Below, piece after piece: positions 22,291 through 54,550 of a stretch of 64,000 bases of DNA; positions within the stretch are counted from its first letter, which is position 1, and the number at the start of each line of letters is the position of its first letter. Below the pieces are notes generated by a model. It did not search any database and was not told where the DNA came from. It saw nothing but the letters and a program-made list of their open reading frames with translations. A program made the translations under genes and the position numbers. Source of the stretch: a virus (lineage: Duplodnaviria; Caudoviricetes); the IMG/VR virus record IMGVR_UViG_3300024322_000001. The stretch is one strand, 5' to 3'.

Positions 22291-22298
22291 TATAAATA
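22291..22298 (-). promoter_or_regulatory. TATTTATA putative late-promoter motif re-initiating after the capsid terminator
   Basis: Immediately downstream of the terminator U-tract, upstream of phoH. Confidence 0.6.
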
Positions 22299-25071: not shown

Positions 25072-25113
25072 ATTCTTATATAAATATATACTTTTTCAGA
25101 AAACTGAAAATAT

Positions 25114-25641
25114 TTATGCAGATGCTGCAACAGCACCAGCTATCTCTGCTCCGACTACTGCTATATCTCTTCCTTTTAGTGCTGCTTTTACTGCTCCTAT
25201 AGTAGCGGTTGCTACATTAGCACCTCTAAGAGCTTGCATTGCTCCTATACCTGCTTTGATACCTAATCCTGCTAACATAGCTATAAATAATCCTTTAGCA
25301 ACTAATTCTCTTTTCTTTTCATCTCTTACGAAAGGCTTAATAAAACCTGAGATAGCTTTAACTATGTTAACTTCATTATTATGTGCCCATTTATGAACTG
25401 CATCAGCTTTATCAGCTGCTTTATCTAAACCTAGTTTTTTAAGTCCTTTAGCAGCATACTTACCTAAAACGTCTAGTACTGTATTAGAAGCAAGTGCCCA
25501 TCCTAATATACCTACTACAGATATAACTTCATTAACTTGTCCTTCTTCTCCTTGTTTACCAAACTCGGCTTCCATAGCTTTTGCTAATTCTTGACCTAAT
25601 TGAGTTTCGTCGCTTTCTAATATTATGTGTGCTAATTTCAT
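25114..25641 (-). CDS. Leader-bearing protein with hydrophobic helices (putative ejected membrane-interacting protein)
   Basis: MKLAHIILE, QVNE, then VISVVGILGWALAS and GLFIAMLAGLGIKAGIGAM. Confidence 0.5.
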   Translation of the reverse strand: MKLAHIILESDETQLGQELAKAMEAEFGKQGEEGQVNEVISVVGILGWALASNTVLDVLGKYAAKGLKKLGLDKAADKADAVHKWAHNNEVNIVKAISGFIKPFVRDEKKRELVAKGLFIAMLAGLGIKAGIGAMQALRGANVATATIGAVKAALKGRDIAVVGAEIAGAVAASA

Positions 25642-26219
25642 TATGCTCTTAATATATCATTTATAATAGAATCTAAGTTTTGAAATTTAGATACTTTTAT
25701 TTTACCTTCTGATAATGCTACTGGGTTCATAAATGCACCGTGAGTAGAAGGATTTGAAACAAAATCCCAACATACTAGTTCGAAATCGTCTTGCACTTCT
25801 AATGCACCTTCATTTGTTTGCTGTACTGATCCTGTACCTCTAGATGAGATACCGATTGTATGGCCTGCTTTTATGATTTCTTTTACGATGTTTCCGGAAG
25901 GAGTATTTAATAACTCTACACGTCCCATAAGGTCGTTTCCTTTCCACCATAAGTCTTTTACTATGTGAGAGGCGTTCTTAAGAGAGACAATAGGAGACTC
26001 AGGGTGATCAAGTTCTCCGAATGCATTACCATTCTCTACAAACTCTTTTATGTACTTTGAGCATTCTCTCTCTAAAATAGGCTTACTATATGTACGTCCA
26101 TTTTGGTTTTTAGATACTGCTCTCTGCATAACCCCTTCGACTTCGTATACACCGGGTCTTTCCTTAGATTCTCTAAGAATTGATTTGAATGGTGTTACGT
26201 CTACTAATAATTGTGCCAT
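25641..26219 (-). CDS. gp21: Prohead maturation protease (T4 gp21-like)
   Basis: NQNGRTY, GELDHP, SHIV, TPSG, GISSRGTGS, DFVSNPS. Confidence 0.93.
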   Translation of the reverse strand: MAQLLVDVTPFKSILRESKERPGVYEVEGVMQRAVSKNQNGRTYSKPILERECSKYIKEFVENGNAFGELDHPESPIVSLKNASHIVKDLWWKGNDLMGRVELLNTPSGNIVKEIIKAGHTIGISSRGTGSVQQTNEGALEVQDDFELVCWDFVSNPSTHGAFMNPVALSEGKIKVSKFQNLDSIINDILRA

Positions 26220-28968: not shown

Positions 28969-29195
28969 AAGTAGTCAACTAATTTAGTATTTGATGGTCG
29001 TTTAGGACGACTAACCTTTTTATATCCTAACTTCTTTAATGCATTTTTAGCTCTATTACCTTTACCAAAAGCAAAGGGTGTAGCATAATTCATTCCCTGT
29101 CCAGGAGTAAATGTAGCTGACCCTCCGGTAACGTTAGCTTCGTCTAACTCAGTCATTACTTCTTTAACTAATGATGTAAGCTCTGATCTTTTCAT
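28965..29195 (-). CDS. Small head-associated protein
   Basis: MKRSELTSLVKEVMTELDE leader, then NYATPFAF and a basic tail; lies between portal and protease. Confidence 0.55.
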   Translation of the reverse strand: MKRSELTSLVKEVMTELDEANVTGGSATFTPGQGMNYATPFAFGKGNRAKNALKKLGYKKVSRPKRPSNTKLVDYL

Positions 29196-30049
29196 TACAG
29201 AGTTTTTAATTCATTAACTAAATCGTAAAATTGCATTAAATTAACCAAGTGGGTGTCGCCAATTTTTTCAGTCTTTTTTACAGGATTGATTGCTTTGGCT
29301 ACTTCCTCTAATTTTATTTTTATTACTTCATCTGTTACTTTAGATGAAAGCTCATTTACCTGAATTCTCAATTTAGTCAATTCTTCATTAACTATAGTGT
29401 GTAAACGTTTTTTTGAATTAACTGAGGTGATAAATTCTTTAAGTATGTTTTTCTGTTCTGGCAGTAAATCTTTATATGTACTGTTAAACTTCTCTAATAA
29501 AATTTTAAACGTTAGTAGTTTAAGATCTTTATCATATTTAGAATACTCTTCGATTAACGTATCTTTAACGTCATTTGTATCTTGAGTTTTATCTGTTAGG
29601 TGTTCTAAAATAGTAACTTTATTGTCTACTAAGTACTTAGGGTCAACTAGCTCTTCATTATTTTGAGCCTCTAATAAACAGTACATAGCAGCTAGTGCTT
29701 TGTAGTCTCTAACTTGGATACTAAAAAACTCATCTACATCATAGTGTTTTTTAATTTCTGATATTAGTTTGTATTTTTGACTTTTGAGAGCATCTTGATT
29801 TAGTTTTCTAGATACTTCAGTAATAGTTGAAACTATTGCTTCTGCTCTTCTCTGTGTTACTCCTTTAGACTTTGTTACTAAGTCGTATAGTTTATATTCT
29901 TTTGCAAGCGAAGTTTTACTTGCATAGAATTCTTTGAGAATACCGACAGCCGGCGATTCTGCTCCAGAGAGAGTATCAGCCGCAATCTGCTTAACTAACA
30001 ATTCAAATATTAGTCCAGTATTTCTATACTTAGAATGCTTTATTTTCAT
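29195..30049 (-). CDS. Prohead core-associated protein (hypothetical)
   Basis: Helical protein directly after portal; own TATTTATA at 30067..30074. Confidence 0.55.
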   Translation of the reverse strand: MKIKHSKYRNTGLIFELLVKQIAADTLSGAESPAVGILKEFYASKTSLAKEYKLYDLVTKSKGVTQRRAEAIVSTITEVSRKLNQDALKSQKYKLISEIKKHYDVDEFFSIQVRDYKALAAMYCLLEAQNNEELVDPKYLVDNKVTILEHLTDKTQDTNDVKDTLIEEYSKYDKDLKLLTFKILLEKFNSTYKDLLPEQKNILKEFITSVNSKKRLHTIVNEELTKLRIQVNELSSKVTDEVIKIKLEEVAKAINPVKKTEKIGDTHLVNLMQFYDLVNELKTL

Positions 30050-30078
30050 CTTATACGTTTACTATATATAAATATGCA

Positions 30079-31968
30079 CTACTTACCTAAATCCTTTATT
30101 TGATCTTCGTTTAATAGTCCCTCGTTGTCCTCACTCGTATCTTTAGTAAAAACAATTTTCTTTAAAAGATCTTCGTTTTTAGCTAAAATAGTCTTTGCTA
30201 CTGTGTTTTCATTGACATTATCGGCATCGCTAGGAAAACCACCTTTCATACCATGTTGACCTAAAGGATCACGTCCTCCTAGTCCTGCTGTAGTACCGTA
30301 TACAGAAGCTTTTTCTTTTGGTCTTCCGCCTTCTGGGCCTGGCTGTCCCCATTCGCTATACCCTGCTGGTAGATTAGCTTGTTCTCCACCTTTTGGTGTA
30401 GCTGTTGCTCTTCTACCGTACATAGAGGCTAAGTCGTGTGGTGTACCGTAAGTTACTCCAGATGAAGCTGGGTCGTTACCTTCTGCTTCTATCTGTGCTC
30501 TTCTAAATTTACGTTTTTCATCTTCTACCATTAGATCTCTCATTTCCATATAAGCATCTTCTGATAAGTCAAATATATTTTCGTAAATATAATCTGTAGA
30601 GAATAATTTAGAATCCTTCATTTGAGTAGCTAAATCTACTTTTTCTTTAAGTAGTGCAACTTTCTCTTGTTCAAATATAATAGAAGGAGTAGTTAACTTG
30701 ATTTCAAAGTTAGTAAGTGATTCACCTGAGAATCCTTGAGTGTATAAGTGAACTAGAGCTATCTTAGTAAGCTCTGATTCCATGATTCTTTGAATACGTT
30801 CTACTGTTCTTGCAAATCTAATATCTTCTGCAGCTAAAGTAGCTTTACCACTTAAGTCACCTTCGTAGCCAAAGTATGCTTTAGGTATCTTTAATGCTGC
30901 AAATAACTTAGATTGTAAGTATTGAACGTCATTAGTACCATCGTAATCTAATCCTTTGGTAGTTTCTATTTTAGTAGCTGTATCTCCTCCTCGTACAGGT
31001 AGATAGAAATCTTCCATCATATTCTGCATATTGAACTTCAAGTTATATTGACCTGTTTCTGGATCAACATAAGGAGTTTTCTTCATTCCATTGATAGTCT
31101 TTTGCATAAACTGCTCAACTTCATTTGGAGGAATAGAACCTACATTAATATAAAACATTCTCTTTTCTGGTGCTCTCATGATTCTATGAATCAACATTGC
31201 ATCTTCCATTAAAGAGGTTTGTTTAAATATTTTTCTAGCTGGCTCTAAATAAGATCTACCGTAAGGTAGGTAATGAGTATCAGATATTAATCTGAAGTGA
31301 GCCATTTCGTAATTATCAATCGTAATATTATTATTACGTTTTCTTCCTCCAGGCATATAGTTAGAATCAGTAGATGCTGCTATACCGTCAGGATCTAATT
31401 CAAATTCTACTTTTTGAGGATTTTCAGGATCGTTACCTTCATGTCTAGCGATGTGGTAAACTGTATAGGGTAAGACGTTATAAACACCGTACTTCTCTGC
31501 TATCTCTAGCTTTAAGAAAAAGTCTCCGTATTTAACCATATTTCTAGTCCAAGACCAGAGGTTAAACTCAATATTTAAAACGTCATAAAATAAGTTGTAA
31601 AGTACTCTTTGAATATTTTCATCAGAAGATTTAATTCCTAGTACTTCATTTTGATCATTCTTTACTGTTGCTTCATCTGCTATAATATCGAGTGCAGAAG
31701 CTATAATTGGATCAGTATCCATTGCCTCGTAATCAGAATATAATTGAATACGTAGAGTCTGATAATTAAGGTTTGGATTAAATATGTTTGCTTTGTTGTA
31801 AGTATATAAACGAGTAAACCTATCCATTAAAGAATTGGTTTGATACTTACCTGTCGTCTGTATATTATTTGTGTCTACAACTTTTAGTTGTGTTCCACCC
31901 ACATTACGTATTACTACGTCGGTAGAAAAAAGTCTTTGTAAACGTCCAAATAGCGATTTATCTGCCAT
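30079..31968 (-). CDS. gp20: Portal protein (T4 gp20-like)
   Basis: MEDAMLIHRIMRAPEKRMFYINVG, MMEDFYLPVRG, LFAALKIP, EDIRF. Confidence 0.93.
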   Translation of the reverse strand: MADKSLFGRLQRLFSTDVVIRNVGGTQLKVVDTNNIQTTGKYQTNSLMDRFTRLYTYNKANIFNPNLNYQTLRIQLYSDYEAMDTDPIIASALDIIADEATVKNDQNEVLGIKSSDENIQRVLYNLFYDVLNIEFNLWSWTRNMVKYGDFFLKLEIAEKYGVYNVLPYTVYHIARHEGNDPENPQKVEFELDPDGIAASTDSNYMPGGRKRNNNITIDNYEMAHFRLISDTHYLPYGRSYLEPARKIFKQTSLMEDAMLIHRIMRAPEKRMFYINVGSIPPNEVEQFMQKTINGMKKTPYVDPETGQYNLKFNMQNMMEDFYLPVRGGDTATKIETTKGLDYDGTNDVQYLQSKLFAALKIPKAYFGYEGDLSGKATLAAEDIRFARTVERIQRIMESELTKIALVHLYTQGFSGESLTNFEIKLTTPSIIFEQEKVALLKEKVDLATQMKDSKLFSTDYIYENIFDLSEDAYMEMRDLMVEDEKRKFRRAQIEAEGNDPASSGVTYGTPHDLASMYGRRATATPKGGEQANLPAGYSEWGQPGPEGGRPKEKASVYGTTAGLGGRDPLGQHGMKGGFPSDADNVNENTVAKTILAKNEDLLKKIVFTKDTSEDNEGLLNEDQIKDLGK

Positions 31969-31993
31969 TAATGTGTATTTTTATATAAATAGT

Positions 31994-33568
31994 CTATTTT
32001 AATAACCACGAAATATCTTCTGTGGTTCGTCCATTATCTATAATATAAGGATTATTTTGCGGACTTCCAACTGATTTTATTATAGCTTTATTCTTAGCAT
32101 TTAGATTAGTAAATGAAGATAATTGAGCTCTAGCTAGGTCCATCCCTTGTTGTCTTAATCTTAATGCAGTATCTCTAACATATAGAGCAGTTGCTGCAGA
32201 GATAAGTAAATCATCATTATAATTAGTTTGTGCTTGAGGTTTTCCGTTTTTCCATACAAATACTCTCATCTCTCCTAAAAGCCTTTTAGACTGTATAGTA
32301 ACGCCTCTTTCTCTAATATACTCAATCATCTTAGCAATTACTAAAGGTCTTGTTCTTACGGACATAGTAAAGCCTGGGACTAATTTATCTCTTTCATACT
32401 TGCTCATATAAGACTCTACAGTTTCCATTTGAGATGTAGAACTATAGTATAAATTACTATATTGACGTTCCATCACCTGTTCTATTGTAGCCCATCCTAT
32501 ATTTGCGTTTTCTATTACTAACAATGCTTGATTGTATTCTGTCGCTATTCCTACTAAGACATTTCCGTAATCCTTAGGAGATAATTTACCTTTATATTCT
32601 GCTACTTGAGTACAAGTTTCTACGTCAAATACGTGAAATGCAGAATAATCCGCAGAGTCTCCTCTAGCAACATCTGCTACTACCATATATGATTTTGTGT
32701 AGTCAACTCCTTCCCATATCCATAAATTACCATCTACACCTCTTCTCTCTAAAGGATCTTTTAAGTATGTTTGTTCATAAAACATCATGTCGTCTGGTTC
32801 AAATACTGTATCACCAGAAGCTAAGAAATCGCAATCACATTCCTGTCCTGCCATTCTAGGACCTAAATCTGAGTCTTGTTTTTCTCGCCATTCTTGGTCC
32901 CTTTCAGGATGTACTGTCCATGGTAATCTTATAGGTAAAAATGAATTCTCACCACTTTCTGCTTTATCCCAAGTCTGATGAAACCAGTTACCAATTCCGT
33001 TAGGAGTTGATAATGCCATACACTGTCCACCTGTTGCTAAGGTTTGTTGTGCTGCTGTAAACGTTTCTTGAATGTTATCAATAAAGGCTGCTTCATCGAT
33101 AAGCAGTAGTGATACTGCCTCTGACCTTGCGGCATCGGCGTTAGAAGATTTAGCTGTAATTTTCGATCCATTCTTTAGTCTAAGTGATAATTTATTTTTC
33201 TCTACTGCTGGTAATCTTAACCATTTAGGTAGTTGATCATACATAAACATAGTCTTAGATACTAAGTTTCTTGCAGTAGCTTGAGTTGTTGCTAGAGCAA
33301 GTACGTTCTTATCCTTATGAAACAACATAAGCCACAGAGAGTAACCTGCAGCTAAAGTGGATATACCTAACTGTCTTGACTTGAGAGTAATTAGATATTG
33401 ATGATCTCTAAATAAATGTAATACTTTATCCTGAAATGGATATAAATTAAATAATATACGTCCTCTTGTAGGATGCTGTATATAGCAATACTTCCTCATG
33501 AAGTAGGCCGGATCTTTAGCACACTTAAAGTACTCTTGTGCTATTATTTTTTTTATATCTTTTGCCAT
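31994..33568 (-). CDS. gp17: Terminase large subunit (T4 gp17-like)
   Basis: KSRQLGIST, LLIDEAAF, STPNG, ADVARG...DYSA, NDDL. Confidence 0.95.
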   Translation of the reverse strand: MAKDIKKIIAQEYFKCAKDPAYFMRKYCYIQHPTRGRILFNLYPFQDKVLHLFRDHQYLITLKSRQLGISTLAAGYSLWLMLFHKDKNVLALATTQATARNLVSKTMFMYDQLPKWLRLPAVEKNKLSLRLKNGSKITAKSSNADAARSEAVSLLLIDEAAFIDNIQETFTAAQQTLATGGQCMALSTPNGIGNWFHQTWDKAESGENSFLPIRLPWTVHPERDQEWREKQDSDLGPRMAGQECDCDFLASGDTVFEPDDMMFYEQTYLKDPLERRGVDGNLWIWEGVDYTKSYMVVADVARGDSADYSAFHVFDVETCTQVAEYKGKLSPKDYGNVLVGIATEYNQALLVIENANIGWATIEQVMERQYSNLYYSSTSQMETVESYMSKYERDKLVPGFTMSVRTRPLVIAKMIEYIRERGVTIQSKRLLGEMRVFVWKNGKPQAQTNYNDDLLISAATALYVRDTALRLRQQGMDLARAQLSSFTNLNAKNKAIIKSVGSPQNNPYIIDNGRTTEDISWLLK

Positions 33569-33575
33569 AACTATC

Positions 33576-35099
33576 CTATATTGGATTTATTTTTTCTATT
33601 TCTAAAGTGCCTTGAGTATTACCATTGTTCCTTGCACTTATCTGGACGAAGTGTGGTTTACCTCGTTTTAGTATGTGAAATAATATTCTTACTCCTCCGT
33701 AACTATCTGTATCTAATATCTTAATATCTTTATAATCCCCTTCTTTATTGTAGAGAACTATATTAGTACCTTGAGGGTATGATTCTACTGTAGCATTAGT
33801 TCCTGATGAGTTACCAATTATTTTAAAAAAACCAGGGTTAACATCAGTTAAAGACATTGCAAAGCCTGCTAATGCAACTACTGCGTCAGCTATTTTACCC
33901 GGTGGAAACTTCTTAAATAGGAATTCAATAGCTTTCAAAGCCGCATATTTTCCTCTAAGTTGATCTATATCAAAATCTTCTAAACTTATACTTTCTAAGC
34001 TGTACGACACATTATCTGCAGATCCAACTAAAGAGCTTATTTTACTCCTTAATGGTACGATTGCTTCTTTAAACTGATCTACATCGTACCCTTTTTCATC
34101 ATTAGTTAAATTATAATCTGATCTAACTTTAGAGTATTTAGCAAGAAGACCTTTTGCTTTTCCACCTTGTGCTTTTTGCTGTTTTAAAGAAACTGCTACT
34201 AAAGAAGCTTCTTCACCTGCTACGTTTGTAGTACCTCCCCATTCTTGCACAAAGAAATTATTAATTATTTCAATATTGTCTGCAGAATTAATATCGGGTA
34301 TACCTTTTAATTGTACGTATAAATCTCCGGGGCACCATTTGTCTTTATCATATCCGGTAAGTTGTTTGGCCTTACTTCTTATCTCATCAAATTTTCCTGA
34401 ACGTATAAGTTTAGCTTTAGGGTATTTTTCCTTAATAGCAAGAGCACTAGATAGAGGTTGGTTAACAAAGTTTACATGCGAGTTTTTAGGTTCAAGCGCT
34501 GATAAGTATGAAACAATTTTTTTGGTGCTAGTTGAATCTTCTCCAGGAATTTCTGCTGGCATTGTACTTATTAAACGTTCTGCTCTTTCTGAAATGTTTT
34601 CTACTGTAAATGGTGAAGTAATATCACTAACATAGAATAAAGAAACTAAACCTTCTTTTACATCTGTATCTGCACTATCTTCTGCTGCTGTTCCTTTTAC
34701 TATAATCGAATAATCATTTCCCCTAAACGTGAGTAATGATTGTCCTACTGAAGAACTCGATGATCTGGCTTTAGTGTAAGAGGTTATGTCTTCTTCTTGG
34801 TTAGCTAGTTTTTCTAATTCTGTAAATACCTCTCCTCTAAGTGTGCTTGAACTTGCTCCTCTAGATGGAATTTCAGAAAATTTTAAAACAATCTTAGATG
34901 TACCTGCAGTAGCTTCTATATCACCGTATCTGTTTATTTTACTCTTAATAAGGTTTACTAGATCTTTATTTTCATTTAATAAAGGAATAAAACCAAACAT
35001 AGATTCAAACAAAGCCATATCCTCTTGACTATTAATGTCAGGATATCCTTTTTTGGTCTTATATGACCATTCTAATATGACTCTATCGATAAGATTCAT
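33576..35099 (-). CDS. Putative PD-(D/E)XK nuclease-like protein with xILE leader
   Basis: DKWCPGDLY...VAVSLKQ resembles a PD...(S/E)xK catalytic core; N-terminal RVILE and PLLNE sites. Confidence 0.45.
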   Translation of the reverse strand: MNLIDRVILEWSYKTKKGYPDINSQEDMALFESMFGFIPLLNENKDLVNLIKSKINRYGDIEATAGTSKIVLKFSEIPSRGASSSTLRGEVFTELEKLANQEEDITSYTKARSSSSSVGQSLLTFRGNDYSIIVKGTAAEDSADTDVKEGLVSLFYVSDITSPFTVENISERAERLISTMPAEIPGEDSTSTKKIVSYLSALEPKNSHVNFVNQPLSSALAIKEKYPKAKLIRSGKFDEIRSKAKQLTGYDKDKWCPGDLYVQLKGIPDINSADNIEIINNFFVQEWGGTTNVAGEEASLVAVSLKQQKAQGGKAKGLLAKYSKVRSDYNLTNDEKGYDVDQFKEAIVPLRSKISSLVGSADNVSYSLESISLEDFDIDQLRGKYAALKAIEFLFKKFPPGKIADAVVALAGFAMSLTDVNPGFFKIIGNSSGTNATVESYPQGTNIVLYNKEGDYKDIKILDTDSYGGVRILFHILKRGKPHFVQISARNNGNTQGTLEIEKINPI

Positions 35100-35111: not shown

Positions 35112-36110
35112 TTAATGATCGTCTTCGTCTTCGTCTTCATCATCACTATAAAATTGGTCATAATCAGTTCCAAAACTCATAGCAAGATCTTGCATAAGCC
35201 AATTAGGTACCTCATCACCTTCGAATTTACCTCCTTTAGCATAAGATCTTAAATCATTTTGAAAAGATTCAACTGTATCATAATACTGTTCTATACTTTC
35301 ATACTCGTGTCCCTGTTCATCAGCAAGACCTAATAATTCTTGGGTAGCAGTAAGGTACTTATTATAATTAGGATCAAGTACATAATGTTCAAAGCTTTTA
35401 TCATTTTCAAAATCATATCCACTTACATAAAAAGCACCTTCTTGTGGTTTATCGCCTAATACTTTATATCCCTTACCGTGTGAAGGGCTAGAGGGATCAA
35501 ACCATTGTTCTTCTTCAAATAAGAGGCCTTCAGCTAAATAAGCTTTTTTCAATTGATGTTGCATAGCTTCTCTTTCTTCCCTGTCATACTGAAATGAATT
35601 GGGGATTATATGATCAAAATCGTATGCATTTTTTATTTTTCCAAATTGTCTAACGTAGCGTTCTAAATCTTCTTGTGTATCAGTAACACCGTAAGGGTTA
35701 AGGTAAACATCTACAAATTTATCAAAAGCTTTTTTTTGACCTTTATCTAACCCACTTAAATCAACATTAGATAAATCATGTCTTTTTCTTGGTGCTGATG
35801 GGTTACTGTCTCCAGCCATTTCATCGTTATAGTAATCAACTGCCATATCTACGATATCACCAGAAGGTACATCTTCTTCTTTTTCATCAGAGTAATATTC
35901 TACAGAACTATCTATGATTGCTTTTAAATCTTTATCAGAAATATCTGGTAATTGTCTTTTAATACCTGCTTCTACTTCTGCTTTATAAGCAGGATCATAG
36001 ATGGCATCATTAACCTCATCAAAATCGTAAGTTAATTCTTCTTTTAATAGCTTACTATTAGAAGTAAGTTTATTTTCTTTTAAAAATTTTCTTAGGTTAA
36101 AGTTATTCAT
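35112..36110 (-). CDS. MNNF-leader cassette gene 4 (acidic, probably multi-domain)
   Basis: MNNFNLRKFLKENKLTSNSKLLKE; internal YLAEGLLFEE site. Confidence 0.7.
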   Translation of the reverse strand: MNNFNLRKFLKENKLTSNSKLLKEELTYDFDEVNDAIYDPAYKAEVEAGIKRQLPDISDKDLKAIIDSSVEYYSDEKEEDVPSGDIVDMAVDYYNDEMAGDSNPSAPRKRHDLSNVDLSGLDKGQKKAFDKFVDVYLNPYGVTDTQEDLERYVRQFGKIKNAYDFDHIIPNSFQYDREEREAMQHQLKKAYLAEGLLFEEEQWFDPSSPSHGKGYKVLGDKPQEGAFYVSGYDFENDKSFEHYVLDPNYNKYLTATQELLGLADEQGHEYESIEQYYDTVESFQNDLRSYAKGGKFEGDEVPNWLMQDLAMSFGTDYDQFYSDDEDEDEDDH

Positions 36111-36129
36111 TGTATTTGCTTTAAATCTT

Positions 36130-36426
36130 TTAATATTCTACTTCTTTTCCTTCAGCGTTAAATTTATATATAACTGCATTATCTCCATCTCTCATTTCGA
36201 TAGCTACTACTTCATCCTCTTCTCTCTCATTTTCTGGGACTGGTGTGATAGTATCTATTCTCATACCGTCGTAGTTGGTGTATTCTCCTACTGTATATAC
36301 CTCTCCGGTTGGAAAAGTAACAGAATTAATAATTTCTTTTTTAGTAAATTTTACTTCACTTAAAAGTTTAGTAGAGTTAGTATCTCTATTTTCTATTAAA
36401 AATTTTCTTAAATCAAAGTTATTCAT
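36130..36426 (-). CDS. MNNF-leader cassette gene 3
   Basis: MNNFDLRKFLIENRDTNSTKLLSE. Confidence 0.7.
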   Translation of the reverse strand: MNNFDLRKFLIENRDTNSTKLLSEVKFTKKEIINSVTFPTGEVYTVGEYTNYDGMRIDTITPVPENEREEDEVVAIEMRDGDNAVIYKFNAEGKEVEY

Positions 36427-36462
36427 TGTATTTGTTTTTATATATTTAGACTACTAATTATC

Positions 36463-36726
36463 TTAATCCTCAGGACCTTCGATCTTATCTCCTTTTCTAA
36501 CTACAAGCCAATCTTTAATTCTATCATGGTACTTATCATCTACATCATCCAATGCAACTAATTTACCGTGTTTATCAGAATAGTATAGATCTGCAGGGGC
36601 AATTTCGCCAGGGAAATAAAGTGTTATTCCTGGGGTTTCATTAAGTTCATCTTCATTTTCTACTGCTCTACTATTAGAGGTAAGTTTATTTTCAGTTAAA
36701 AATTTTCTTAAATCAAAGTTATTCAT
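36463..36726 (-). CDS. MNNF-leader cassette gene 2
   Basis: MNNFDLRKFLTENKLTSNS...ELNE. Confidence 0.7.
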   Translation of the reverse strand: MNNFDLRKFLTENKLTSNSRAVENEDELNETPGITLYFPGEIAPADLYYSDKHGKLVALDDVDDKYHDRIKDWLVVRKGDKIEGPED

Positions 36727-36753
36727 TTTATTTATTTTTATTTGATGTTTATA

Positions 36754-37443
36754 CTAATCTAAATCTCCTAAAGAGTTGAGAAAGTAATTAGCTATTTCAA
36801 TTCCATCTTCATCGTCTCTCTCTTCAAAGTATTCTAAGTATTGATCTGCAGAAAGAATAAGAGCTTGGACATCATCAATACCGTCTTTTCTAAACGGCTT
36901 AGTTCCCATTATAATTTTTCTTCCTTGAGGTGTAGACTTATACATATCGGTTAACTTTTTAGCTACTTTCAAGTATTTCGGATCTCCAGTCTCTGGTTGA
37001 TGTACAGGTTTCACTGGTTTACTTGCTTTTTTCCAAACTTTAACAGCTCGTGTAATCCACAAACGATTACCATAGTTGTCTAATCCATCAAAATATTTTA
37101 CTTCTCCATTTTCATCTTTTACTAAATCCCTTGTTCCTGTGTGACCAATTTTTTTAGTATGTGATTCTTTCCTTTTATTTTTATAATAATCTCTTACTTC
37201 TTCTTCTGAATTCAACTTCATAATTTCATCAGCATAGAATTGATAATCATACTTAGAATTGTACGGAACTGGGAATGCACGGCCGTAACTTTCATCTTCC
37301 CACTTAATCAGCGCTATTTGTTGAGGTGTTGCTCCTGAGATATTTACTGTATAATCTGCAATACCACTAGACGTATATGTATCTGCACTATTAGAAGTAA
37401 GTCTATTTTCTGTTAAGAATTTTCTTAAATCAAAGTTATTCAT
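36754..37443 (-). CDS. MNNF-leader cassette gene 1
   Basis: MNNFDLRKFLTENRLTSNS. Confidence 0.7.
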   Translation of the reverse strand: MNNFDLRKFLTENRLTSNSADTYTSSGIADYTVNISGATPQQIALIKWEDESYGRAFPVPYNSKYDYQFYADEIMKLNSEEEVRDYYKNKRKESHTKKIGHTGTRDLVKDENGEVKYFDGLDNYGNRLWITRAVKVWKKASKPVKPVHQPETGDPKYLKVAKKLTDMYKSTPQGRKIIMGTKPFRKDGIDDVQALILSADQYLEYFEERDDEDGIEIANYFLNSLGDLD

Positions 37444-37458: not shown

Positions 37459-39747
37459 TTAAGCTTCTGGATCTTCTCCTGGTTCTTCAAAGTCTATTGG
37501 TTCTCCGCCTAAGTCTGCACCTCCGGCATCATCTGCTGGTGCTTCATCTCCTCCAGCGTCTCCACCAAGAGCATCAACTCCTGCATCATCTCCTCCGCCT
37601 CCTGCATCAGAACCAGGGAAGTCGCCTCCTCCACCTCCACCGGAACTTCCAGTATCGGTATCAGCAGCTTCTGCATCTCCAGACCCGCCCATTGGTCCTT
37701 CTTTGTAAAGCCTAGCCAACTTATCTAAAGCTTGTTGATAATCATCTATCTTATCGATGTAATAGCGTTTACCTAGTATCTGAGCTTCAAATGCTGTTCC
37801 AGTCCACTTAAGAATATAAGATTGACCGTTTTTAATGTTCACCCTAAATGATGATGGTCTAGGCGAAATCCAGTCAATACTGGTTACAAATTCTTTAAAC
37901 TGATCAGTTTGTAGCTTGATTATAGCTTTTTTTAATGTTGGGAACTTCCCTAGTATAATATCTGTTGCATCCTCTAATATAGTCTCTTTAGGAGCATCCA
38001 TATCAGGTTCTTCTTCTGGTACTGTTTCTTCTTTTATTACTCCTTCTTGATAATACTCATCATCGTCGTAATCATCATAGTCATCGTAATCATCTTCTTC
38101 TTCAAATTCAGGCTCATAATCAAATATACCTCCTAAAGTATTCTTGGTGTACTCTCCTTCTTTTGACTCTATATAGTCTAAGATAGAAATTAGCACATCT
38201 TTGATTGTTTTTTCGTAATCAGTACCTTCTTTAAATATTTTTGCTACTACAGCTCTTAATGGATGATTTGCGTTAACTAAAAATGAGTGAGCAGGTCCGG
38301 CAGTTTCAATACCATATCCTGTAAAATATTCATCACCGTCGTTATAGTATCTATAAATAATTCTATTGATAGCTCTTAACATTTCACCTTCTACTGTTTC
38401 TGCATCTCCGTTTCCAGGTACTAACTTATCGTATAAAGGTTCGTTTCTATCTTCTAATTCTTTACCTACAAATTCAGTAACTACATCTTCAGTAGTATAA
38501 GCATCGTATCTATCTTGATCACTTTGTGCTGCATTTAGCATATCGTTTAGGTCATGATCTTTTTGGAAAGCAGAATTTTTTAAAGTTACTGCGTTAGGTA
38601 AATCATCTCCTCTACCTATGTGGAGTTCAAAATCCTGTCCTTCTTTATAGTTAGATTGTAAATGATCAACTACATCCTGTATTCTATCTAAATCGTACCC
38701 AAAGGTAACTAATTCCTCATATGCTTCATTTATCTTTCCTACTGCTTGATCATACGACATATTCTTGTTATATACTGATGCTGCTTTTTCAATAGCATTA
38801 TCAATCTTATTTAATTGATCACCGTACATATCAGCTACTGGTCCTCCTGTTGGTTCGATTTCTGGATCGTTTTCCATATCGCTCATTACTTGAGCTCTTT
38901 TAATCTTTAACTTACGAACAATCTCTCTTGCTTTCTCTTCTTTTCTTTGTCCGCTAGCATATGCTCTTGCAGCTGCTTTGCCTTCAGGAGATTTTTTATA
39001 AGCGTCTAATTTTTTCATATCATCAGCTCTCATCTTAGCAACTCTTGCTCTCATAAGAACTGGATCGTTATAGTCTAATGCTTCTTGTACAGGTTTTACT
39101 CTGTCGCTAGGAAATCTTTTAACTGTGCTACCGTCGAATCGTACAAAGGTTTTGTCACCTTCTACTTTTTCAACAGAACCAGTACCGAACATTCTACCGT
39201 CTTTATCGTATACATGAACTAAGTCATAATGATCGTTGATACCTTCTTCTATTGAAGTAAAAGCTTTCTCAATACCTTCCATCATTCTCTGCATCTTAAG
39301 CAGATTATACTGTTCAGGTCTCTCTGTTCTTAAGTATCTTTGTAATTTTCTGAAATTAGTTCTGGTTAACTCGAAAAACTCTCTAGCTGCTTCATCTTTT
39401 CTAATATCATCAGACCCCATTAACTTTTTAATATCGCCTATAATATCTGAGAAATTTTTATAAAGAGAACCAAATGAAGGTAGTGTTATTACCTTATGTC
39501 CAATAGTACCTGTTGTAGTATTTTTCTCTGAAGCTTTAAAGTATGTTGACATATCACTACTAAAGAAATCGTGTTTACCATCAAACTTTGGTTCACCATA
39601 CCTTTTGACGATACCTGCTCTTTGCTTATCCGTAAGATCCTCCCATTGAGTAGTTCTGTTACCAGTCTCTTTTTCAATTTGAGCTTTTGACATTTCATCA
39701 ATGACTTCGCTGTACGATTCTAATATTAGTTTTTCAAGCTTATGCAT
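37459..39747 (-). CDS. Modular polyprotein-like head-internal protein
   Basis: MHKLEKLILE leader; IDE, IEE, VQE, INE, VTE, IKE, ILE junctions; Gly/Asp-rich tail. Confidence 0.6.
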   Translation of the reverse strand: MHKLEKLILESYSEVIDEMSKAQIEKETGNRTTQWEDLTDKQRAGIVKRYGEPKFDGKHDFFSSDMSTYFKASEKNTTTGTIGHKVITLPSFGSLYKNFSDIIGDIKKLMGSDDIRKDEAAREFFELTRTNFRKLQRYLRTERPEQYNLLKMQRMMEGIEKAFTSIEEGINDHYDLVHVYDKDGRMFGTGSVEKVEGDKTFVRFDGSTVKRFPSDRVKPVQEALDYNDPVLMRARVAKMRADDMKKLDAYKKSPEGKAAARAYASGQRKEEKAREIVRKLKIKRAQVMSDMENDPEIEPTGGPVADMYGDQLNKIDNAIEKAASVYNKNMSYDQAVGKINEAYEELVTFGYDLDRIQDVVDHLQSNYKEGQDFELHIGRGDDLPNAVTLKNSAFQKDHDLNDMLNAAQSDQDRYDAYTTEDVVTEFVGKELEDRNEPLYDKLVPGNGDAETVEGEMLRAINRIIYRYYNDGDEYFTGYGIETAGPAHSFLVNANHPLRAVVAKIFKEGTDYEKTIKDVLISILDYIESKEGEYTKNTLGGIFDYEPEFEEEDDYDDYDDYDDDEYYQEGVIKEETVPEEEPDMDAPKETILEDATDIILGKFPTLKKAIIKLQTDQFKEFVTSIDWISPRPSSFRVNIKNGQSYILKWTGTAFEAQILGKRYYIDKIDDYQQALDKLARLYKEGPMGGSGDAEAADTDTGSSGGGGGGDFPGSDAGGGGDDAGVDALGGDAGGDEAPADDAGGADLGGEPIDFEEPGEDPEA

Positions 39748-39750
39748 ATC

Positions 39751-42700
39751 TTATTTATTTCTACAGTGAGACTTTCCTTTTAAAAAAGGTCTTTTACAGT
39801 TTCCTTTAACATGTACTCTACCGCATTTACCGCAGCATGTTGCTCCTTCAGTTAATTCGTCCTTGTTTACTAAGGTTAATTTAAAAGAGTCATGTAAGCC
39901 AGTTTTCCTTTTACCTGGTTTGCCGTTAATAACTCTAACATAAGCATCATGTCTTCCAACTTTTCCATCTACTCTTTGATAAATATTACCGTGTTGATTT
40001 TTAACATAATCTCCAGGCATAATTTGACCTCCTTTAGCTTCGTTTATATCAGCATCTAATTCAAACTTCTTAAATTTATTTAAATCGTTTAAACTTTTCA
40101 ATTCAACTCTTTTGCCGTCATTATCTAATCCGTAAATATTACCATCATACTTACCCATTCCATCAGAACGTTTACCTGCTAATTTTTGTTTTAATTCAGC
40201 TCCTGCTCTACGTTTAGATACTGATGAAGTCATTCCTAGGTCTTGTCTAGTAGCTTCTTCCATATGCCTCTTTCCTAGTCCAGGTAAGTTTCTTAGATCT
40301 TGTACATATTGATCTGTTTTAACTAAAATAGTACCTAAATTATGACCCTCATCATTTTCATCTACTTTCATTAAGGTAATTTCTGATACGCCAGGATTAA
40401 AGTCTGGATCTTTATCTTTAAAGTTACTATTGTAGTATTGTTTTTGATGCATTCTATATTTTTGACCTTCATGCTCTAAATTATGATATTGCATGTGAAC
40501 AAACATTGGTGCGTATTGACCCATTCTAGCTTTGATACCACTCTTATCATGTTTCTTTAAAGCTTCAAATGCATCGTTTTCACTAGCTACCCCTTTAGGT
40601 AATAGATCTGCAAATAATTGTTTACCGAACATATCAGGCGCTCTTTTGTTAGCATCGTCGATTACTTCTGAACCTTTAAATCTATCATCAGTAAATTCTT
40701 TTAATACTGATTCGTTAGTATATACTTCTCCGTCTTCGATTTCATATCCTTCTTCTTCTAATCTGTCTACAAAGCCTCCTAGAGTGACATCGTATCTATT
40801 ACCTGAATACATGTTATTAAAAGCACCGTAAGCATCTAATCTTGATAGCTCGTTAGGAAATGTATGTCTAACTACTTCTCTTGCTTCTTCTCCTTTAGAC
40901 TCGATTTCATCGATTAAATCTCTTAACTCTCTAATTGCATCTTGAACTTCGTCTTCAGTAACTTCTGTTAGTTCCTGACTATGGTGTGTACCGGCTACTG
41001 CTCTTTCTAATTCAGCTTCTAGTTTCTTTTTAGTTATAGTAAGAGATCTAAGTTGGTCAACAACTGATTTATCACCTGCTTTGTATTTCTTAGCAAGATC
41101 TTTCATTATACTAATTACCTTACCGTAAGCTGTTTGAATCTTAGCAGCGGATGCTTCGTCCATATTTTTACGTCTAGGTATTTGAGTTGACATATCCTTT
41201 AAGTCACCTTGTACCGATTGCATTGCTCTAGCTAATGTTGAAAACTCTTCTGCAGGAACATGAATATAATCCCCACCGTAAGTAATCTGTACCATTAATC
41301 CTCTTTTACCGCCAGAGAATCTTTTTATATTGATACCATTTTTATCATATAATTCAGTACCTTCATTCATTGCATGCTCTAAAGCTAGTTTATCAATAAG
41401 AGGTTGTTTTTCTTCTGAATCTAAATAATGGTAAGCTGCAGACATATAGTCTCTAGCTAAGATTAATTTCTTTTGCCACCAGTTAGGAAAATCTACTTCT
41501 CCATCTACTTGATCATATTGAGCTAATTTCTTTGCTAATTTAGCAGCATAAGTAGCTGTTTCAAAAGCAGATGACTTTAACATACTAGGCTCATCATCTT
41601 GATGTCCTATGTCTAAATCTTCTCCTAAAGGTCTTCCGTCATCATCATATGCTACTCCATGATCTTCTTCATCATCTTTCTGTTCTTGATCAGGATCGTA
41701 GTTTTCATCCATATCAGCAGATGAATCTACTACTGTGATATCGTTAGCTCGTAAATCCATTACTACATCGTACATAAATGCACTTGGATCTTCATCTGGT
41801 TCTTGGTAGAATTCTGGGTTTTCTTTTCCTTCTGGATCGTCGTACATATCGTCAAATCCATATTCGTGTCTAAATACAAAGTATATAATTACATTTCCAG
41901 CTCCGTCATTGTCAACAACCTCCATTTTAACATAAGTTGGATCTACATTTTGATCTAAGATAGACATAGCTTTCTTATAATCTCCTCTAGATACTTTTAA
42001 GTAGTGGTGATCGTCTCCTTCTCCTTCTTTAACTCCTACTTTATCTCTTTTGGCAAATACCTTTTCTTTATCTTTATCAGATAATTTACTGAAGCTTACA
42101 CCATCGAATTCACGATGTGCAATTAAATCTAATCTATCTTCTTCTTCGTGGCTTAATTTTCTGCCTTTGAAATTATACTCTTCAGATAATGATTTAAAGT
42201 GTTTTAATAGTTCATTTGCTAGTACATCCCTGTTAATGATTGCCTCTCCCGAAGGTTTAACACCTACCTCTACTAATTCTTTATCGAAGGAAAAATCTAC
42301 TAAATGTAATGCATCATCTATAATATAGAAAGAGAATTCATCCATATTACCTTCTGCTTTATACTCTACGTGTATATCAAAGCTGTTTGGCTCTATATGA
42401 TGAGCTTTCATTGATTCTAACTCATCTCCACCTTTCTTTAACGCTATAGCTAAAGATTTACCTACTTCTTTTGCTATCTTCTTAGTTTCGTTTTGATCAA
42501 ACTCTACTCCGTTATTTTTCTTAAAAAGACTATTTTCTTTAACTTCTTCTCCTGCTGCTGTCTTTATCTTATCGACATCATCGGAAGATTTAAGTGCAGT
42601 AACTTCGTCATCTGATAGTTTAGCTAATGTAGGTTTACCTCCTTTTGGTGTGAGTAGGTAGGATTCTTCTTCTTTAAGTATTTTTTTATATTTCTTGATG

Positions 42701-42837
42701 CTTTCTTTAAGTACTTTAATTACTTTGTTTACATCTTTAGAATCGCCTTTGTCCTTAGTAGACACTCCTTTGGTTTGTATTAACTCTAAAGTCACTTGAC
42801 ATTTGTTAAGGCGCTTTTTTATTTCCTCGTAGTTCAT
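39751..42837 (-). CDS. Modular polyprotein-like head-internal protein with C-terminal Cys/His cluster
   Basis: About 12 [ILVM]xE junctions; ends CCGKCGRVH...C...HC; TATTTATA at 42867..42874. Confidence 0.6.
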   Translation of the reverse strand: MNYEEIKKRLNKCQVTLELIQTKGVSTKDKGDSKDVNKVIKVLKESIKKYKKILKEEESYLLTPKGGKPTLAKLSDDEVTALKSSDDVDKIKTAAGEEVKENSLFKKNNGVEFDQNETKKIAKEVGKSLAIALKKGGDELESMKAHHIEPNSFDIHVEYKAEGNMDEFSFYIIDDALHLVDFSFDKELVEVGVKPSGEAIINRDVLANELLKHFKSLSEEYNFKGRKLSHEEEDRLDLIAHREFDGVSFSKLSDKDKEKVFAKRDKVGVKEGEGDDHHYLKVSRGDYKKAMSILDQNVDPTYVKMEVVDNDGAGNVIIYFVFRHEYGFDDMYDDPEGKENPEFYQEPDEDPSAFMYDVVMDLRANDITVVDSSADMDENYDPDQEQKDDEEDHGVAYDDDGRPLGEDLDIGHQDDEPSMLKSSAFETATYAAKLAKKLAQYDQVDGEVDFPNWWQKKLILARDYMSAAYHYLDSEEKQPLIDKLALEHAMNEGTELYDKNGINIKRFSGGKRGLMVQITYGGDYIHVPAEEFSTLARAMQSVQGDLKDMSTQIPRRKNMDEASAAKIQTAYGKVISIMKDLAKKYKAGDKSVVDQLRSLTITKKKLEAELERAVAGTHHSQELTEVTEDEVQDAIRELRDLIDEIESKGEEAREVVRHTFPNELSRLDAYGAFNNMYSGNRYDVTLGGFVDRLEEEGYEIEDGEVYTNESVLKEFTDDRFKGSEVIDDANKRAPDMFGKQLFADLLPKGVASENDAFEALKKHDKSGIKARMGQYAPMFVHMQYHNLEHEGQKYRMHQKQYYNSNFKDKDPDFNPGVSEITLMKVDENDEGHNLGTILVKTDQYVQDLRNLPGLGKRHMEEATRQDLGMTSSVSKRRAGAELKQKLAGKRSDGMGKYDGNIYGLDNDGKRVELKSLNDLNKFKKFELDADINEAKGGQIMPGDYVKNQHGNIYQRVDGKVGRHDAYVRVINGKPGKRKTGLHDSFKLTLVNKDELTEGATCCGKCGRVHVKGNCKRPFLKGKSHCRNK

Positions 42838-42876
42838 ATAATATAAATTTTATATACGTATATAATTATAAATAGA

Positions 42877-43506
42877 TCAATTACTCCAAATAACGTTTTT
42901 GAATTTCTCAGGAGAGAGACCAAAATAGTTAGTTCTCCATTGAGTCTGTTCAAAAAAATCTAAGTCGTACCACTGGTCACGTATACTCCATAAAGACTTT
43001 GCTACATCGTCCCAATCTAATTTAAGAATAAATTCTTCAATTTCCAACTTTTTTTCAATAACTGCATCATAGTCAAAGCTATCCCATTCATAATGGAATA
43101 CTTCAAATACTGCATCTTTAGAAACATAATCTATTGATATATCGATTCCCCATTTAGGTTTCATTTTCACAAGTTTATATAACATCGGATTATATTCCTG
43201 AGCAATTGCTTCGATTTGTTCTTTAGCTACAGATTTAAATCCTTTTCTTTCAAATAAATCAGAATGATTAATATGAGCACCGTCTTTCTTATCCCAGGTA
43301 AACCAATCGTACCTCATACAATCTTCATGGCGACGTTCGAATTGTTTATAACCATTACAAACCAAAAAAGCCTGTTCGGCTTTTGTTAAGTGGTAACCAT
43401 TTTGGTCAAATAAATCTACAGAGTTAGTATTTTTTAAAACGTCTATGTCTTCTGTTGGGTCTAAAAAATAAGCTTCCTTATGTAGTTTATTATCTGATAA
43501 TATCAT
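42877..43506 (-). CDS. Hypothetical protein
   Basis: 209-aa ORF in operon; FDQNGY and PKWGIDISIDY look like conserved motifs but were not assigned. Confidence 0.6.
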   Translation of the reverse strand: MILSDNKLHKEAYFLDPTEDIDVLKNTNSVDLFDQNGYHLTKAEQAFLVCNGYKQFERRHEDCMRYDWFTWDKKDGAHINHSDLFERKGFKSVAKEQIEAIAQEYNPMLYKLVKMKPKWGIDISIDYVSKDAVFEVFHYEWDSFDYDAVIEKKLEIEEFILKLDWDDVAKSLWSIRDQWYDLDFFEQTQWRTNYFGLSPEKFKNVIWSN

Positions 43507-53986: not shown

Positions 53987-54550
53987 TTACCAATACCCTG
54001 AAAAGTTTTTAGAGCCTCCTAAGGACTTCCAATAGCGTCCTATATTACAAGACCAGTATCCTGGTTTAGTTTTATCCTTCTTAGTAGAACATTTATGTCT
54101 AGCTGCAAATGAAGCTCTAGCTCCTGGTTCTTTTATTTTAACTGATAAGTTACCGCTATCGCCAAAATTTACTTTCTTTACATTTCCTGTTTTAGGGTTC
54201 TTAACATATACAAAGAATTTTTTAGGTCCGCCTCTTTTAGGTTTATTTAAGGGTACTTCTCTTCCTTTATATTCAGCTTCATCAATGTCTTCTTCAGCTA
54301 CCATGGGTAAATCTAATGGTACTTTTTCTCCTTCAAATACTCCGTACTCTCCTATATCTGTAGATTCTAGTAAATTTATGTCTTGTTCGTTTAGTTCTAT
54401 GAGACCGTCTCTCCAAGCGTCTCTCGCTTCAGCAAATAATTGTATAAAGTTATCACTAGAGTAACGGTAGACATTCTCATATAAAGAGAGACTGTTATCT
54501 ACATGGTACTGTAGAGATGGTAATCCGACTAAGTCTTTAATTTTTATCAT
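53987..54550 (-). CDS. Two-module protein with basic C-terminal domain common in aquatic T4-like phages
   Basis: IDE|AEYKGREVPLNKP...KKFFVYV...VKKVNFGD...SFAARHKC...GYWSC. Confidence 0.6.
   Translation of the reverse strand: MIKIKDLVGLPSLQYHVDNSLSLYENVYRYSSDNFIQLFAEARDAWRDGLIELNEQDINLLESTDIGEYGVFEGEKVPLDLPMVAEEDIDEAEYKGREVPLNKPKRGGPKKFFVYVKNPKTGNVKKVNFGDSGNLSVKIKEPGARASFAARHKCSTKKDKTKPGYWSCNIGRYWKSLGGSKNFSGYW

What the first reader, a model, noticed from the sequence alone, without database searches (positions are those of the whole stretch)
37459..42837. Two giant polyprotein-like ORFs: strings of small domains separated by prohead-protease-type sites
Seen: the 1028-aa ORF is punctuated by ILKE|E, EVKE|N, SLSE|E, GVKE|G, DMDE|N, PLGE|D, AMNE|G, NMDE|A, ELTE|V, VLKE|F, HMEE|A, DINE|A and ELTE|G. 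The 762-aa ORF has LILE|S, VIDE|M, SIEE|G, PVQE|A, KINE|A, VVTE|F, VIKE|E and TILE|D. Segments of 30-150 aa differ sharply in character (beta-rich SH3-like, helical, acidic, Cys/His metal-binding). Both lie in one operon with the leader cassette array. Inference: polyproteins cut inside the prohead into around 20 separate mini-proteins, a way of packaging many effectors with one targeting signal.
Basis: partly seen in the sequence, partly recalled or inferred. Interest (0 to 1): 0.8.

Follow-up and report, generated by a model that had tools for sequence, protein, structure and literature searches.

The report
Shuffled head-cargo polyproteins, flavobacterial T4-like phage
Two giant late genes of an uncultured T4-like phage are strings of small, swappable protein modules joined by flexible linkers that carry the cutting motif of the phage's own head protease. 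One gene therefore probably loads many small proteins into the capsid, but no cutting or packaging has been measured.

Summary
The number of [LIVM]-x-E motifs is at chance (22 vs 19.9 expected; 10 vs 14.1). Their placement is not.

- **Breakpoints:** homology breakpoints against about 270 relatives fall on the motifs (0 of 10,000 random placements fit as well for the 1028-aa ORF).
- **Junctions:** where only the downstream module is shared, the residue before it is Glu in 83 of 84 distinct contexts, with L/I/V/M two residues earlier.
- **Structure:** AlphaFold2 puts 12 of 22 and 8 of 10 motifs in disordered linkers. Folded parts are depleted of the motif.
- **Stand-alone forms:** the same modules occur elsewhere as separate genes with short leaders ending in the same motif.
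- **Protease:** a gp21-type prohead protease (Peptidase_S77) lies 11 kb downstream in the same head-gene block.

Best reading (about 0.6): these are prohead-targeted precursors cut into roughly 20 pieces. Module functions are unknown, and the "effector" role is inference only. The family is large (1365 clusters at 50% identity) and I found no description of it in the papers searched. This scan has noted similar polyproteins in other T4-like phage genomes. I class it as a new variant of T4-type head cargo.

The parts
39751..42837 (-). Polyprotein 1 (P0001, 1028 aa): 14 segments delimited by junction sites after residues 101, 219, 271, 378, 406, 492, 561, 625, 695, 714, 861, 933 and 997
42181..42837 (-). 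P0001 residues 1-219: constant N-terminal module and candidate prohead-targeting or propeptide part. It is always at the N-terminus of relatives (83 of 83).
41620..42180 (-). P0001 modules 220-271 and 272-378, plus the acidic disordered linker 379-406
40696..41619 (-). P0001 modules 407-492 (helical hairpin, the commonest module, in 104 of 149 representatives), 493-561 (beta plus helix), 562-625, 626-695, and the short acidic linker 696-714
40255..40695 (-). P0001 module 715-861. Elsewhere it is a complete stand-alone 156-aa gene with a 10-residue leader ending in I-L-K-E (P0116, locus L032).
39847..40254 (-). P0001 modules 862-933 and 934-997 (basic, beta-rich)
39754..39846 (-). P0001 residues 998-1028: Cys/His-rich, strongly basic tail (net +9). 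It is always C-terminal in relatives (30 of 30).
37459..39747 (-). Polyprotein 2 (P0002, 762 aa): a conserved core (residues 1-157 plus 593-762, a ~365-aa protein in most relatives) with variable modules inserted between residues 158 and 592
39718..39747 (-). P0002 residues 1-10: nearly invariant leader ending I-L-E, the same length as the T4 capsid targeting sequence
   Evidence: T4 facts from PMC9026906
39082..39243 (-). P0002 module 169-222: small SH3/Tudor-like beta-barrel whose fold limits coincide with the sites after residues 168 and 222
37972..39081 (-). P0002 modules 223-341 (helical hairpin; sits in polyprotein-1-type ORFs of relatives), 342-425, and 426-592 (helical domain plus acidic linker). 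Module 426-536 is a stand-alone 131-aa gene in an unrelated 595-kb phage.
37462..37971 (-). P0002 residues 593-762: constant C-terminal module with a Gly/Asp-rich acidic tail. In phage immuto it is fused to the end of the polyprotein-1 homologue.
25641..26219 (-). Prohead protease (Peptidase_S77, gp21 type), the presumed processing enzyme
   Evidence: E = 1.3e-35
35112..37443 (-). Four leader-tagged cassette genes directly downstream in the same gene string. The body of the 87-aa cassette occurs inside polyproteins of relatives.
42867..42874 (-). Promoter-like octamer 30 nt upstream of the P0001 start. The same octamer also precedes the portal, scaffold and other late genes.

Best explanation
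P0001 and P0002 are late, prohead-targeted precursor proteins of an immuto-like (Flavobacteriia-type) T4-like myovirus. Each is a chain of independently folding modules of 50-170 residues joined by disordered linkers. Each linker ends in [L/V/I/M]-x-Glu, the specificity class of the phage's own gp21-type (S77) prohead protease.

Proposed mechanism:
1. The constant N-terminal part (the 219-residue module of P0001; the 10-residue leader plus N-domain of P2) takes the whole chain into the scaffolding core.
2. After shell assembly the protease cuts after the junction Glu residues and releases about 14 + 8 pieces.
3. Acidic linker peptides probably leave the head.
4. Folded modules, including the basic Cys/His tail, probably stay with the DNA and may be ejected into the host, as T4 internal proteins are.

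Because each module is autonomous after cutting, modules can be swapped freely. They move between the two polyproteins and between polyproteins and single leader-tagged cassette genes.

Shown here: the architecture, the junction rule, the linker location, the shuffling, the stand-alone equivalents and the presence of the protease. Inferred: targeting, cutting, retention, ejection and any function in the host.
For: **Protease and head-gene context**
- S77 protease, gp23-type capsid protein and gp20-type portal lie in the same minus-strand block. TerL and portal follow the two ORFs. The order is the same in phage immuto.
- T4 gp21 cuts after L/I-x-E (PMC9026906).

**Breakpoints against relatives**
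- Breakpoints cluster at 219, 378, 404-406, 484-493, 558-565, 623-626, 694-696, 707-712, 859-866, 933-937 and 995-999.
- Permutation test: 0 of 10,000 random placements fit as well.
- Family-wide, 540 of 3184 alignment ends stop exactly on the motif Glu.

**Junction conservation**
- Where only the downstream module is shared, the residue before it is Glu in 16/16, 22/22, 29/30, 9/9 and 7/7 distinct upstream contexts. P3 is L/I/V/M in 75-97% (89% pooled). Background is Glu 8.7% and LIVM 21.8%.

**Structure**
- AlphaFold2 low-confidence segments coincide with the sites.
- The motif is enriched in linkers (P = 1.6e-4 and 0.008). It is depleted in the folded parts of P0002 (2 vs 8.3 expected, P = 0.005) and lower, though not significantly, in those of P0001 (10 vs 15.5, P = 0.06).

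**Stand-alone equivalents**
- The body of the 87-aa cassette lies inside giant ORFs of relatives at 77% identity.
- Module 715-861 is a complete 156-aa gene with a 10-residue leader ending in the motif. It sits in a tandem array of genes that share that leader.
- Module 426-536 of P0002 is a 131-aa gene that starts at the same residue in an unrelated huge phage.

**Architecture rules**
- The N-module is always N-terminal (83/83) and the Cys/His tail always C-terminal (30/30).
- There are 193 distinct architectures among 268 proteins.

**DNA level**
- No shared linker DNA beyond the GAA codon, so the constraint acts on the protein.
Against: - No experimental evidence of packaging or cleavage exists for this phage or for immuto.
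- The motif carries little information, and its overall count is at chance.
- Some junctions in relatives lack it. The 407-492 module is preceded by Gly-Gly in 30 of 76 contexts, and the 87-aa cassette body is preceded by a non-motif sequence in one relative.
- Site 219 lies at the end of a confident helix rather than in a disordered linker.
- P0001 has no short cleavable leader.
- Many modules are acidic, unlike the basic T4 internal proteins.
- No module matches a known effector or any characterised family.
Confidence: 0.6

Rival explanations
1. These are prohead core or scaffold-type proteins, like T4 gp22, gp67 and gp68. They are cut at many sites only so that the fragments can leave the capsid and free its volume for DNA. 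The modules act before cutting, in assembly or size determination, and are not delivered cargo.
For: - T4 core proteins are cut into many fragments that mostly exit the head (PMC9026906).
- Many modules and all linkers are acidic.
- The genes sit in the head morphogenesis block.
- The P2 core is conserved in every relative, as an essential assembly protein would be.
Against: - The middle modules vary and shuffle greatly (193 architectures in 268 proteins). That is unusual for an assembly scaffold.
- The modules are conserved folded domains that also exist as separate leader-tagged genes, and one exists in an unrelated huge phage.
- The motif is depleted inside folded parts, which suggests the modules are protected from cutting.
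- A separate acidic scaffold gene already lies next to the capsid gene.
Confidence: 0.2
2. These are ordinary uncleaved multidomain proteins, structural or not. The hydrophobic-x-Glu at domain ends would then be a structural end-cap or a by-product of how modules recombine, not a protease site.
For: - The motif is short and common, and its total count is at chance.
- Some junctions lack it.
- Phage N4 virion RNA polymerase is an example of a large protein packaged unprocessed (PMC5512222).
Against: - The junction Glu is kept in about 99% of unrelated upstream contexts, while the codons around it differ. This excludes recombination microhomology.
- The same motif closes the N-terminal leaders of stand-alone versions of the same modules.
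- It fits the specificity of the protease family encoded in the same block.
- The sites lie in disordered linkers, not at helix caps, except site 219.
Confidence: 0.15

Closest known systems
Phage T4 internal proteins IPI, IPII, IPIII and Alt (capsid targeting sequence removed by gp21)
   Same: - A T4-type head module with an S77 protease.
- P0002 and the stand-alone module genes carry a ~10-residue N-terminal leader ending in I/L-x-E.
- The cargo set is hypervariable between related phages.
- Leader-tagged small genes lie next door.
   Different: - Here many cargo units are translated as one chain and would be released by internal cuts. T4 internal proteins are single genes with one N-terminal cut (Alt also has a C-terminal one).
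- There is no sequence similarity.
- Many modules are acidic rather than basic.
- P0001 lacks a short leader.
T4 prohead core proteins gp22, gp67 and gp68, cut into several fragments by gp21
   Same: Multiple L/I-x-E type sites in one head-module protein, and acidic segments.
   Different: Those proteins are conserved assembly factors whose fragments are mostly expelled. They are not mosaics of shuffled folded domains with stand-alone equivalents.
Inner-body and ejection proteins of phiKZ, 201phi2-1 and SPN3US, with long propeptides cut several times by gp175/gp245 (S/A-x-E, A-x-E)
   Same: - A diverged gp21-type protease that cuts after Glu.
- Long N-terminal propeptides (111-254 residues in SPN3US), comparable to the constant 219-residue N-module.
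- Multiple cuts per precursor.
   Different: - In those phages the multiple cuts clear a propeptide from one mature protein (PMC10052503).
- Here each inter-site segment is its own conserved, exchangeable module.
- The P3 preference differs (L/V/I/M instead of Ala/Ser).
Polyvalent proteins of phages and conjugative elements (Iyer et al. 2017, PMC5512222)
   Same: - Large multi-domain proteins predicted to travel with the DNA.
- The analogy to viral polyproteins.
- Domain release by proteolysis was proposed.
   Different: - Polyvalent proteins are defined by known conflict domains (zincin-like peptidase, ADP-ribosyltransferase, ParB-like DNase and others) and mostly by embedded peptidases.
- None of those domains was detected here.
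- Here release would be by the separate prohead protease at a fixed junction motif.

Membership tests
T4-type CTS-targeted internal head proteins | N-terminal leader of about 10 residues ending in L/I-x-E | tested here: met
   P0002 has a 10-residue leader ending I-L-E. Residues 1, 3 and 6-10 are at least 90% conserved in 50 homologues. P0001 has no such leader; its first motif is at residue 45, inside a helix.
T4-type CTS-targeted internal head proteins | A gp21-type (Peptidase_S77) prohead protease encoded by the same phage | tested here: met
   window 25641-26219, PF03420, E = 1.3e-35
T4-type CTS-targeted internal head proteins | Physically packaged in the head, processed by the protease, and ejected with the DNA | not testable with these tools
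   This needs virion proteomics or in vitro digestion. No proteomic study of immuto-like phages turned up.
T4-type CTS-targeted internal head proteins | Sequence or fold similarity to IPI, IPII, IPIII or Alt | tested here: inconclusive
   No PHROG, Pfam, PDB-sequence or fold match to them. The internal proteins are themselves unrelated to one another, and whole-chain fold searches test single domains poorly.
Polyvalent proteins (Iyer et al. 2017) | Contains known conflict domains (zincin-like metallopeptidase, ART, ParB-like DNase, PBECR and others) in one polypeptide | tested here: not met
   Pfam-A and PHROGs scans of both proteins give no such domain above threshold.
Viral polyprotein in the general sense (one translation product cut into several functional proteins) | Independently folding units separated by protease recognition sites | tested here: met
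   AlphaFold2 domains and linkers, junction motif conservation and stand-alone equivalents.
Viral polyprotein in the general sense (one translation product cut into several functional proteins) | Demonstrated cleavage into the units | not testable with these tools
   No experimental data exist.

The most novel reading that the evidence does not exclude
The junction motif is a general plug-and-play rule. Any small protein flanked by [LIVM]-x-Glu can move between polyproteins and leader-tagged single genes and still be loaded into the capsid. After cutting, the modules would be ejected with the DNA as a fast-evolving combinatorial set of host-takeover or anti-defence proteins. On this reading, the family of more than 1000 clusters is a large untapped reservoir of injected phage effectors of unknown function.
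Probability: 0.35. Interest if true: 0.85.

Novelty: new variant of a known kind. Interest (0 to 1): 0.72.

Why it matters
T4 internal proteins are the textbook case of proteins injected with phage DNA to disarm host defences, but only a handful are known and each is a single gene. A polyprotein format with a simple junction rule would explain three things:

- how marine T4-like phages carry and exchange many such proteins at once;
- how mature protein boundaries could be predicted from sequence alone for hundreds of uncharacterised modules;
- where natural sites for loading foreign proteins into capsids might lie.

It is directly testable, because a cultured relative exists (Flavobacterium phage immuto, which has homologues of both genes).

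Tried and rejected
- **Overall motif enrichment:** rejected. Counts are at chance in both ORFs; only the positions are non-random.
- **Family assignment:**
  - Pfam-A and PHROGs give nothing except an unknown-function PHROG on residues 350-407 of P0002.
  - PDB sequence profiles give nothing.
  - Foldseek against the PDB gives no hit at E <= 0.001.
  - BFVD returns only uncharacterised phage proteins.
  - VIA-align returns only generic helical hairpins, plus an SH3/Tudor-like match for residues 169-222 of P0002 at Z 7.4.
  - The protein atlas has no usable hit.
Most modules therefore remain untested one by one.
- **A DNA-level fixed linker**, as noted by this scan in other phages, was looked for and not found.
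- **Whole-genome search for the protease:** not possible, because no genome is held for this window. It was found in the window instead.
- **Close DNA relatives among cultured phages:** none. Only distant protein matches to immuto were found.
- **Complex prediction of protease with substrate:** not run. It is an enzyme-substrate case that the tool rarely resolves.
- **Literature:** no paper describing such shuffled polyproteins turned up in the open library. The library is incomplete.
Full report
**Observation**

The window is one minus-strand gene string at about 34% G+C. The two ORFs are exactly as described: 39751-42837 encodes 1028 aa (P0001) and 37459-39747 encodes 762 aa (P0002), three bases apart.

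**Context**

There is no close DNA relative among 50,697 phage records. The only cultured relatives are the Flavobacterium phages of genus Immutovirus, with about 43% identity over part of P0001. Their gene order is the same: giant ORF, smaller ORF, terminase, gp20-type portal, gp21-type protease, acidic scaffold-like protein, gp23-type capsid protein.

In the window the order downstream of the two ORFs is:
- four small genes sharing an N-terminal leader
- a 507-aa ORF
- TerL (31994-33568)
- portal (30079-31968)
- a 284-aa, a 76-aa and a 769-aa ORF
- a fifth leader gene
- the protease at 25641-26219 (Peptidase_S77, E = 1.3e-35)
- an acidic scaffold-like protein
- the Gp23-family capsid protein

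A promoter-like octamer sits 30 nt before the P0001 start. The same octamer precedes the portal, scaffold and other genes (26 copies vs 14.7 expected, 0 of 100 shuffles reach that number). No terminator-like site lies on the coding strand between P0001 and TerL. The two ORFs therefore open the head-gene string.

**Is the motif more than chance?**

By count it is not. P0001 has 22 [LIVM]-x-E vs 19.9 expected from composition, and P0002 has 10 vs 14.1. T4 gp21 cuts after L/I-x-E with few other determinants (PMC9026906), so a count says little. Placement is the real test.

**Module boundaries from relatives**

P0001 has 1365 representative clusters (50% identity) at E <= 0.001 in a 1.8-billion-protein library, mostly as several separate matched stretches. 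P0002 has 455 hits. Twenty-nine IMG/VR loci were fetched.

Alignments to these relatives break at recurrent positions:
- P0001: 219-222, 378-381, 404-406, 484-493, 558-565, 623-626, 694-696, 707-712, 859-866, 933-937, 995-999
- P0002: 157, 215-224, 336-342, 418-423

These positions coincide with motif sites. In P0001 the 13 breakpoint peaks lie a mean 3.8 aa from a motif. None of 10,000 random placements of 22 sites does as well, and seven control motifs of similar frequency give 12-76 aa. For P0002, 115 of 10,000 random placements do as well. In an all-against-all comparison of 268 family proteins, 540 of 3184 internal alignment ends stop exactly on the motif Glu, against about 20-30 per neighbouring offset far from it. 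Alignment starts pile up one to three residues before the cut.

**The junction rule is independent of the neighbours**

I looked at eight module-start signatures in distinct upstream contexts, that is, where the upstream module differs. For five of them the residue immediately before the module is Glu in 16/16, 22/22, 29/30, 9/9 and 7/7 contexts. The residue two before that is L/I/V/M in 75-97% (89% pooled). Background is 8.7% Glu and 21.8% LIVM. Two further signatures show the motif one or two residues upstream. One module, 407-492, has Glu in 34 and Gly-Gly in 30 of 76 contexts, so not every joint obeys the rule.

The DNA at the 20 junctions of the window shares only the GAA codon, and no linker-length DNA repeat exists. 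The constraint therefore acts on the protein, not on recombination homology.

**Structure**

AlphaFold2 with family alignments gave mean pLDDT 73 for P0001 and 58 for P0002. P0001 is a chain of confident small domains separated by segments with pLDDT<50: 101-107, 268-274, 377-413, 480-493, 548-561, 618-629, 696-712, 855-870, 932-938 and 996-1023. These are the candidate sites, apart from 219, which ends a confident helix.

| ORF | Scissile bonds in pLDDT<50 segments | Share of residues in such segments | P | Motifs in folded parts (observed vs expected) |
|---|---|---|---|---|
| P0001 | 12 of 22 | 18% | 1.6e-4 | 10 vs 15.5 (P = 0.06) |
| P0002 | 8 of 10 | 37% | 0.008 | 2 vs 8.3 (P = 0.005) |

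One module can be named at the fold level. Residues 167-224 of P0002 align to SH3/Tudor-like barrels (Z 7.4, 53 residues, rmsd 2.7-4.2 Å), with limits at the proposed cuts after 168 and 222.

**Modules as autonomous units**

- The body of the neighbouring 87-aa leader cassette (36463-36726, residues 31-87, starting right after a motif) lies inside giant ORFs of relatives at 77% identity.
- Module 715-861 of P0001 is a complete 156-aa gene (P0116) on TARA contigs. A 10-residue leader ending I-L-K-E is followed by the module, and the protein ends where the module ends. Its neighbours in a tandem array carry the same leader.
- Module 426-536 of P0002 is a 131-aa stand-alone gene in an unrelated 595-kb uncultured phage, and it starts at the same residue.
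- Modules of P0002 (223-421) sit inside P0001-type ORFs in several relatives. Module 272-378 is duplicated in some. In immuto the P0002 C-terminal module is fused to the P0001 homologue.

**Architecture rules**

- The 219-residue N-module of P0001 is N-terminal in 83 of 83 relatives that have it. The basic Cys/His tail is C-terminal in 30 of 30.
- In most relatives P0002 is a ~365-aa protein made of its residues 1-157 plus 585-762. The window's copy carries about 430 extra residues of modules inserted at a junction.
- A rough clustering gives about 50 recurrent segment clusters and 193 distinct architectures among 268 proteins. Single linkage over-merges, so these numbers are approximate.

**Mechanism**

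The most economical reading has four steps.
1. The constant N-terminal part carries the chain into the prohead core. For P0002 this is a leader of the same length as the 10-residue T4 targeting sequence, whose residues 8 and 10 govern processing (PMC9026906). For P0001 it is a long N-module, comparable to the 111-254-residue propeptides of SPN3US head proteins (PMC10052503).
2. The S77 protease then cuts after the junction Glu residues.
3. Acidic linkers leave the head.
4. Folded modules remain and may be ejected.

All four steps are inference. No cleavage, packaging or ejection data exist, and no module function could be assigned.

**Comparison and novelty**

Multi-site cutting by gp21-type proteases is known: the T4 core proteins, and the phiKZ and SPN3US propeptides. 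Leader-targeted, hypervariable head cargo is also known: the T4 internal proteins. Iyer et al. drew an analogy between polyvalent proteins and viral polyproteins (PMC5512222), but those proteins are defined by known conflict domains that are absent here.

What is new is the combination. Exchangeable autonomous modules are strung together by a conserved protease-site rule, are interconvertible with leader-tagged single genes, and form a very large metagenomic family. I found no description of this in the open literature searched.

Earlier notes of this scan report similar shuffled head-cargo polyproteins in other T4-like phage genomes. One of them describes a linker fixed at the DNA level, which I tested here and did not find. 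I class the finding as a new variant of a known kind.

Noticed in passing
window 26659-28968 (-): A 769-aa ORF between portal and protease has more [LIVM]-x-E than expected (25 vs 16, z 2.65). It aligns to relatives in separate blocks (about 1-503 and 581-766). It may be a third polyprotein-like head protein.
   Followed up: partly
window 29195-30049 (-): A 284-aa ORF directly after the portal gene has 16 [LIVM]-x-E vs 7.1 expected (z 3.9). It is 67-77% identical across related loci. It is a candidate prohead core protein and heavy protease substrate, with no family match.
   Followed up: no
window 42867-42874, 31984-31991, 30067-30074, 25079-25086, 22291-22298 and others: The octamer TATAAATA on the plus strand (its reverse complement on the coding strand) occurs 26 times vs 14.7 expected. 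It mostly lies in short gaps just upstream of minus-strand late genes, so it is a candidate late promoter element.
   Followed up: partly
L032 132-1302 (TARA metagenome contig): A tandem array of at least three genes that all start with the same 10-residue leader ending in I-L-x-E. One gene is the stand-alone form of P0001 module 715-861. This is a second type of leader cassette array.
   Followed up: partly
L031 3001-3396 (LR756511.1, 595-kb uncultured phage): A stand-alone 131-aa homologue (53% identity) of P0002 module 426-536 in an unrelated huge phage. The module family reaches beyond the immuto-like clade.
   Followed up: partly
window 53987-54550 (-): A 187-aa ORF with 9 [LIVM]-x-E vs 2.8 expected (z 4.1). 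It lies outside the head block and was not examined.
   Followed up: no
window 42877-43506 (-): A 209-aa ORF immediately upstream of P0001 is 70-80% identical in 15 related loci and sits in the same position in those with upstream sequence. It has no Pfam or PHROG match. This conserved partner has no known role.
   Followed up: no
window 33576-35099 (-): A 507-aa ORF before TerL. Its first 37 residues, including a 10-residue leader ending I-L-E, are 92-100% identical in relatives whose remaining sequence is unrelated. This is another leader plus variable body case.
   Followed up: partly
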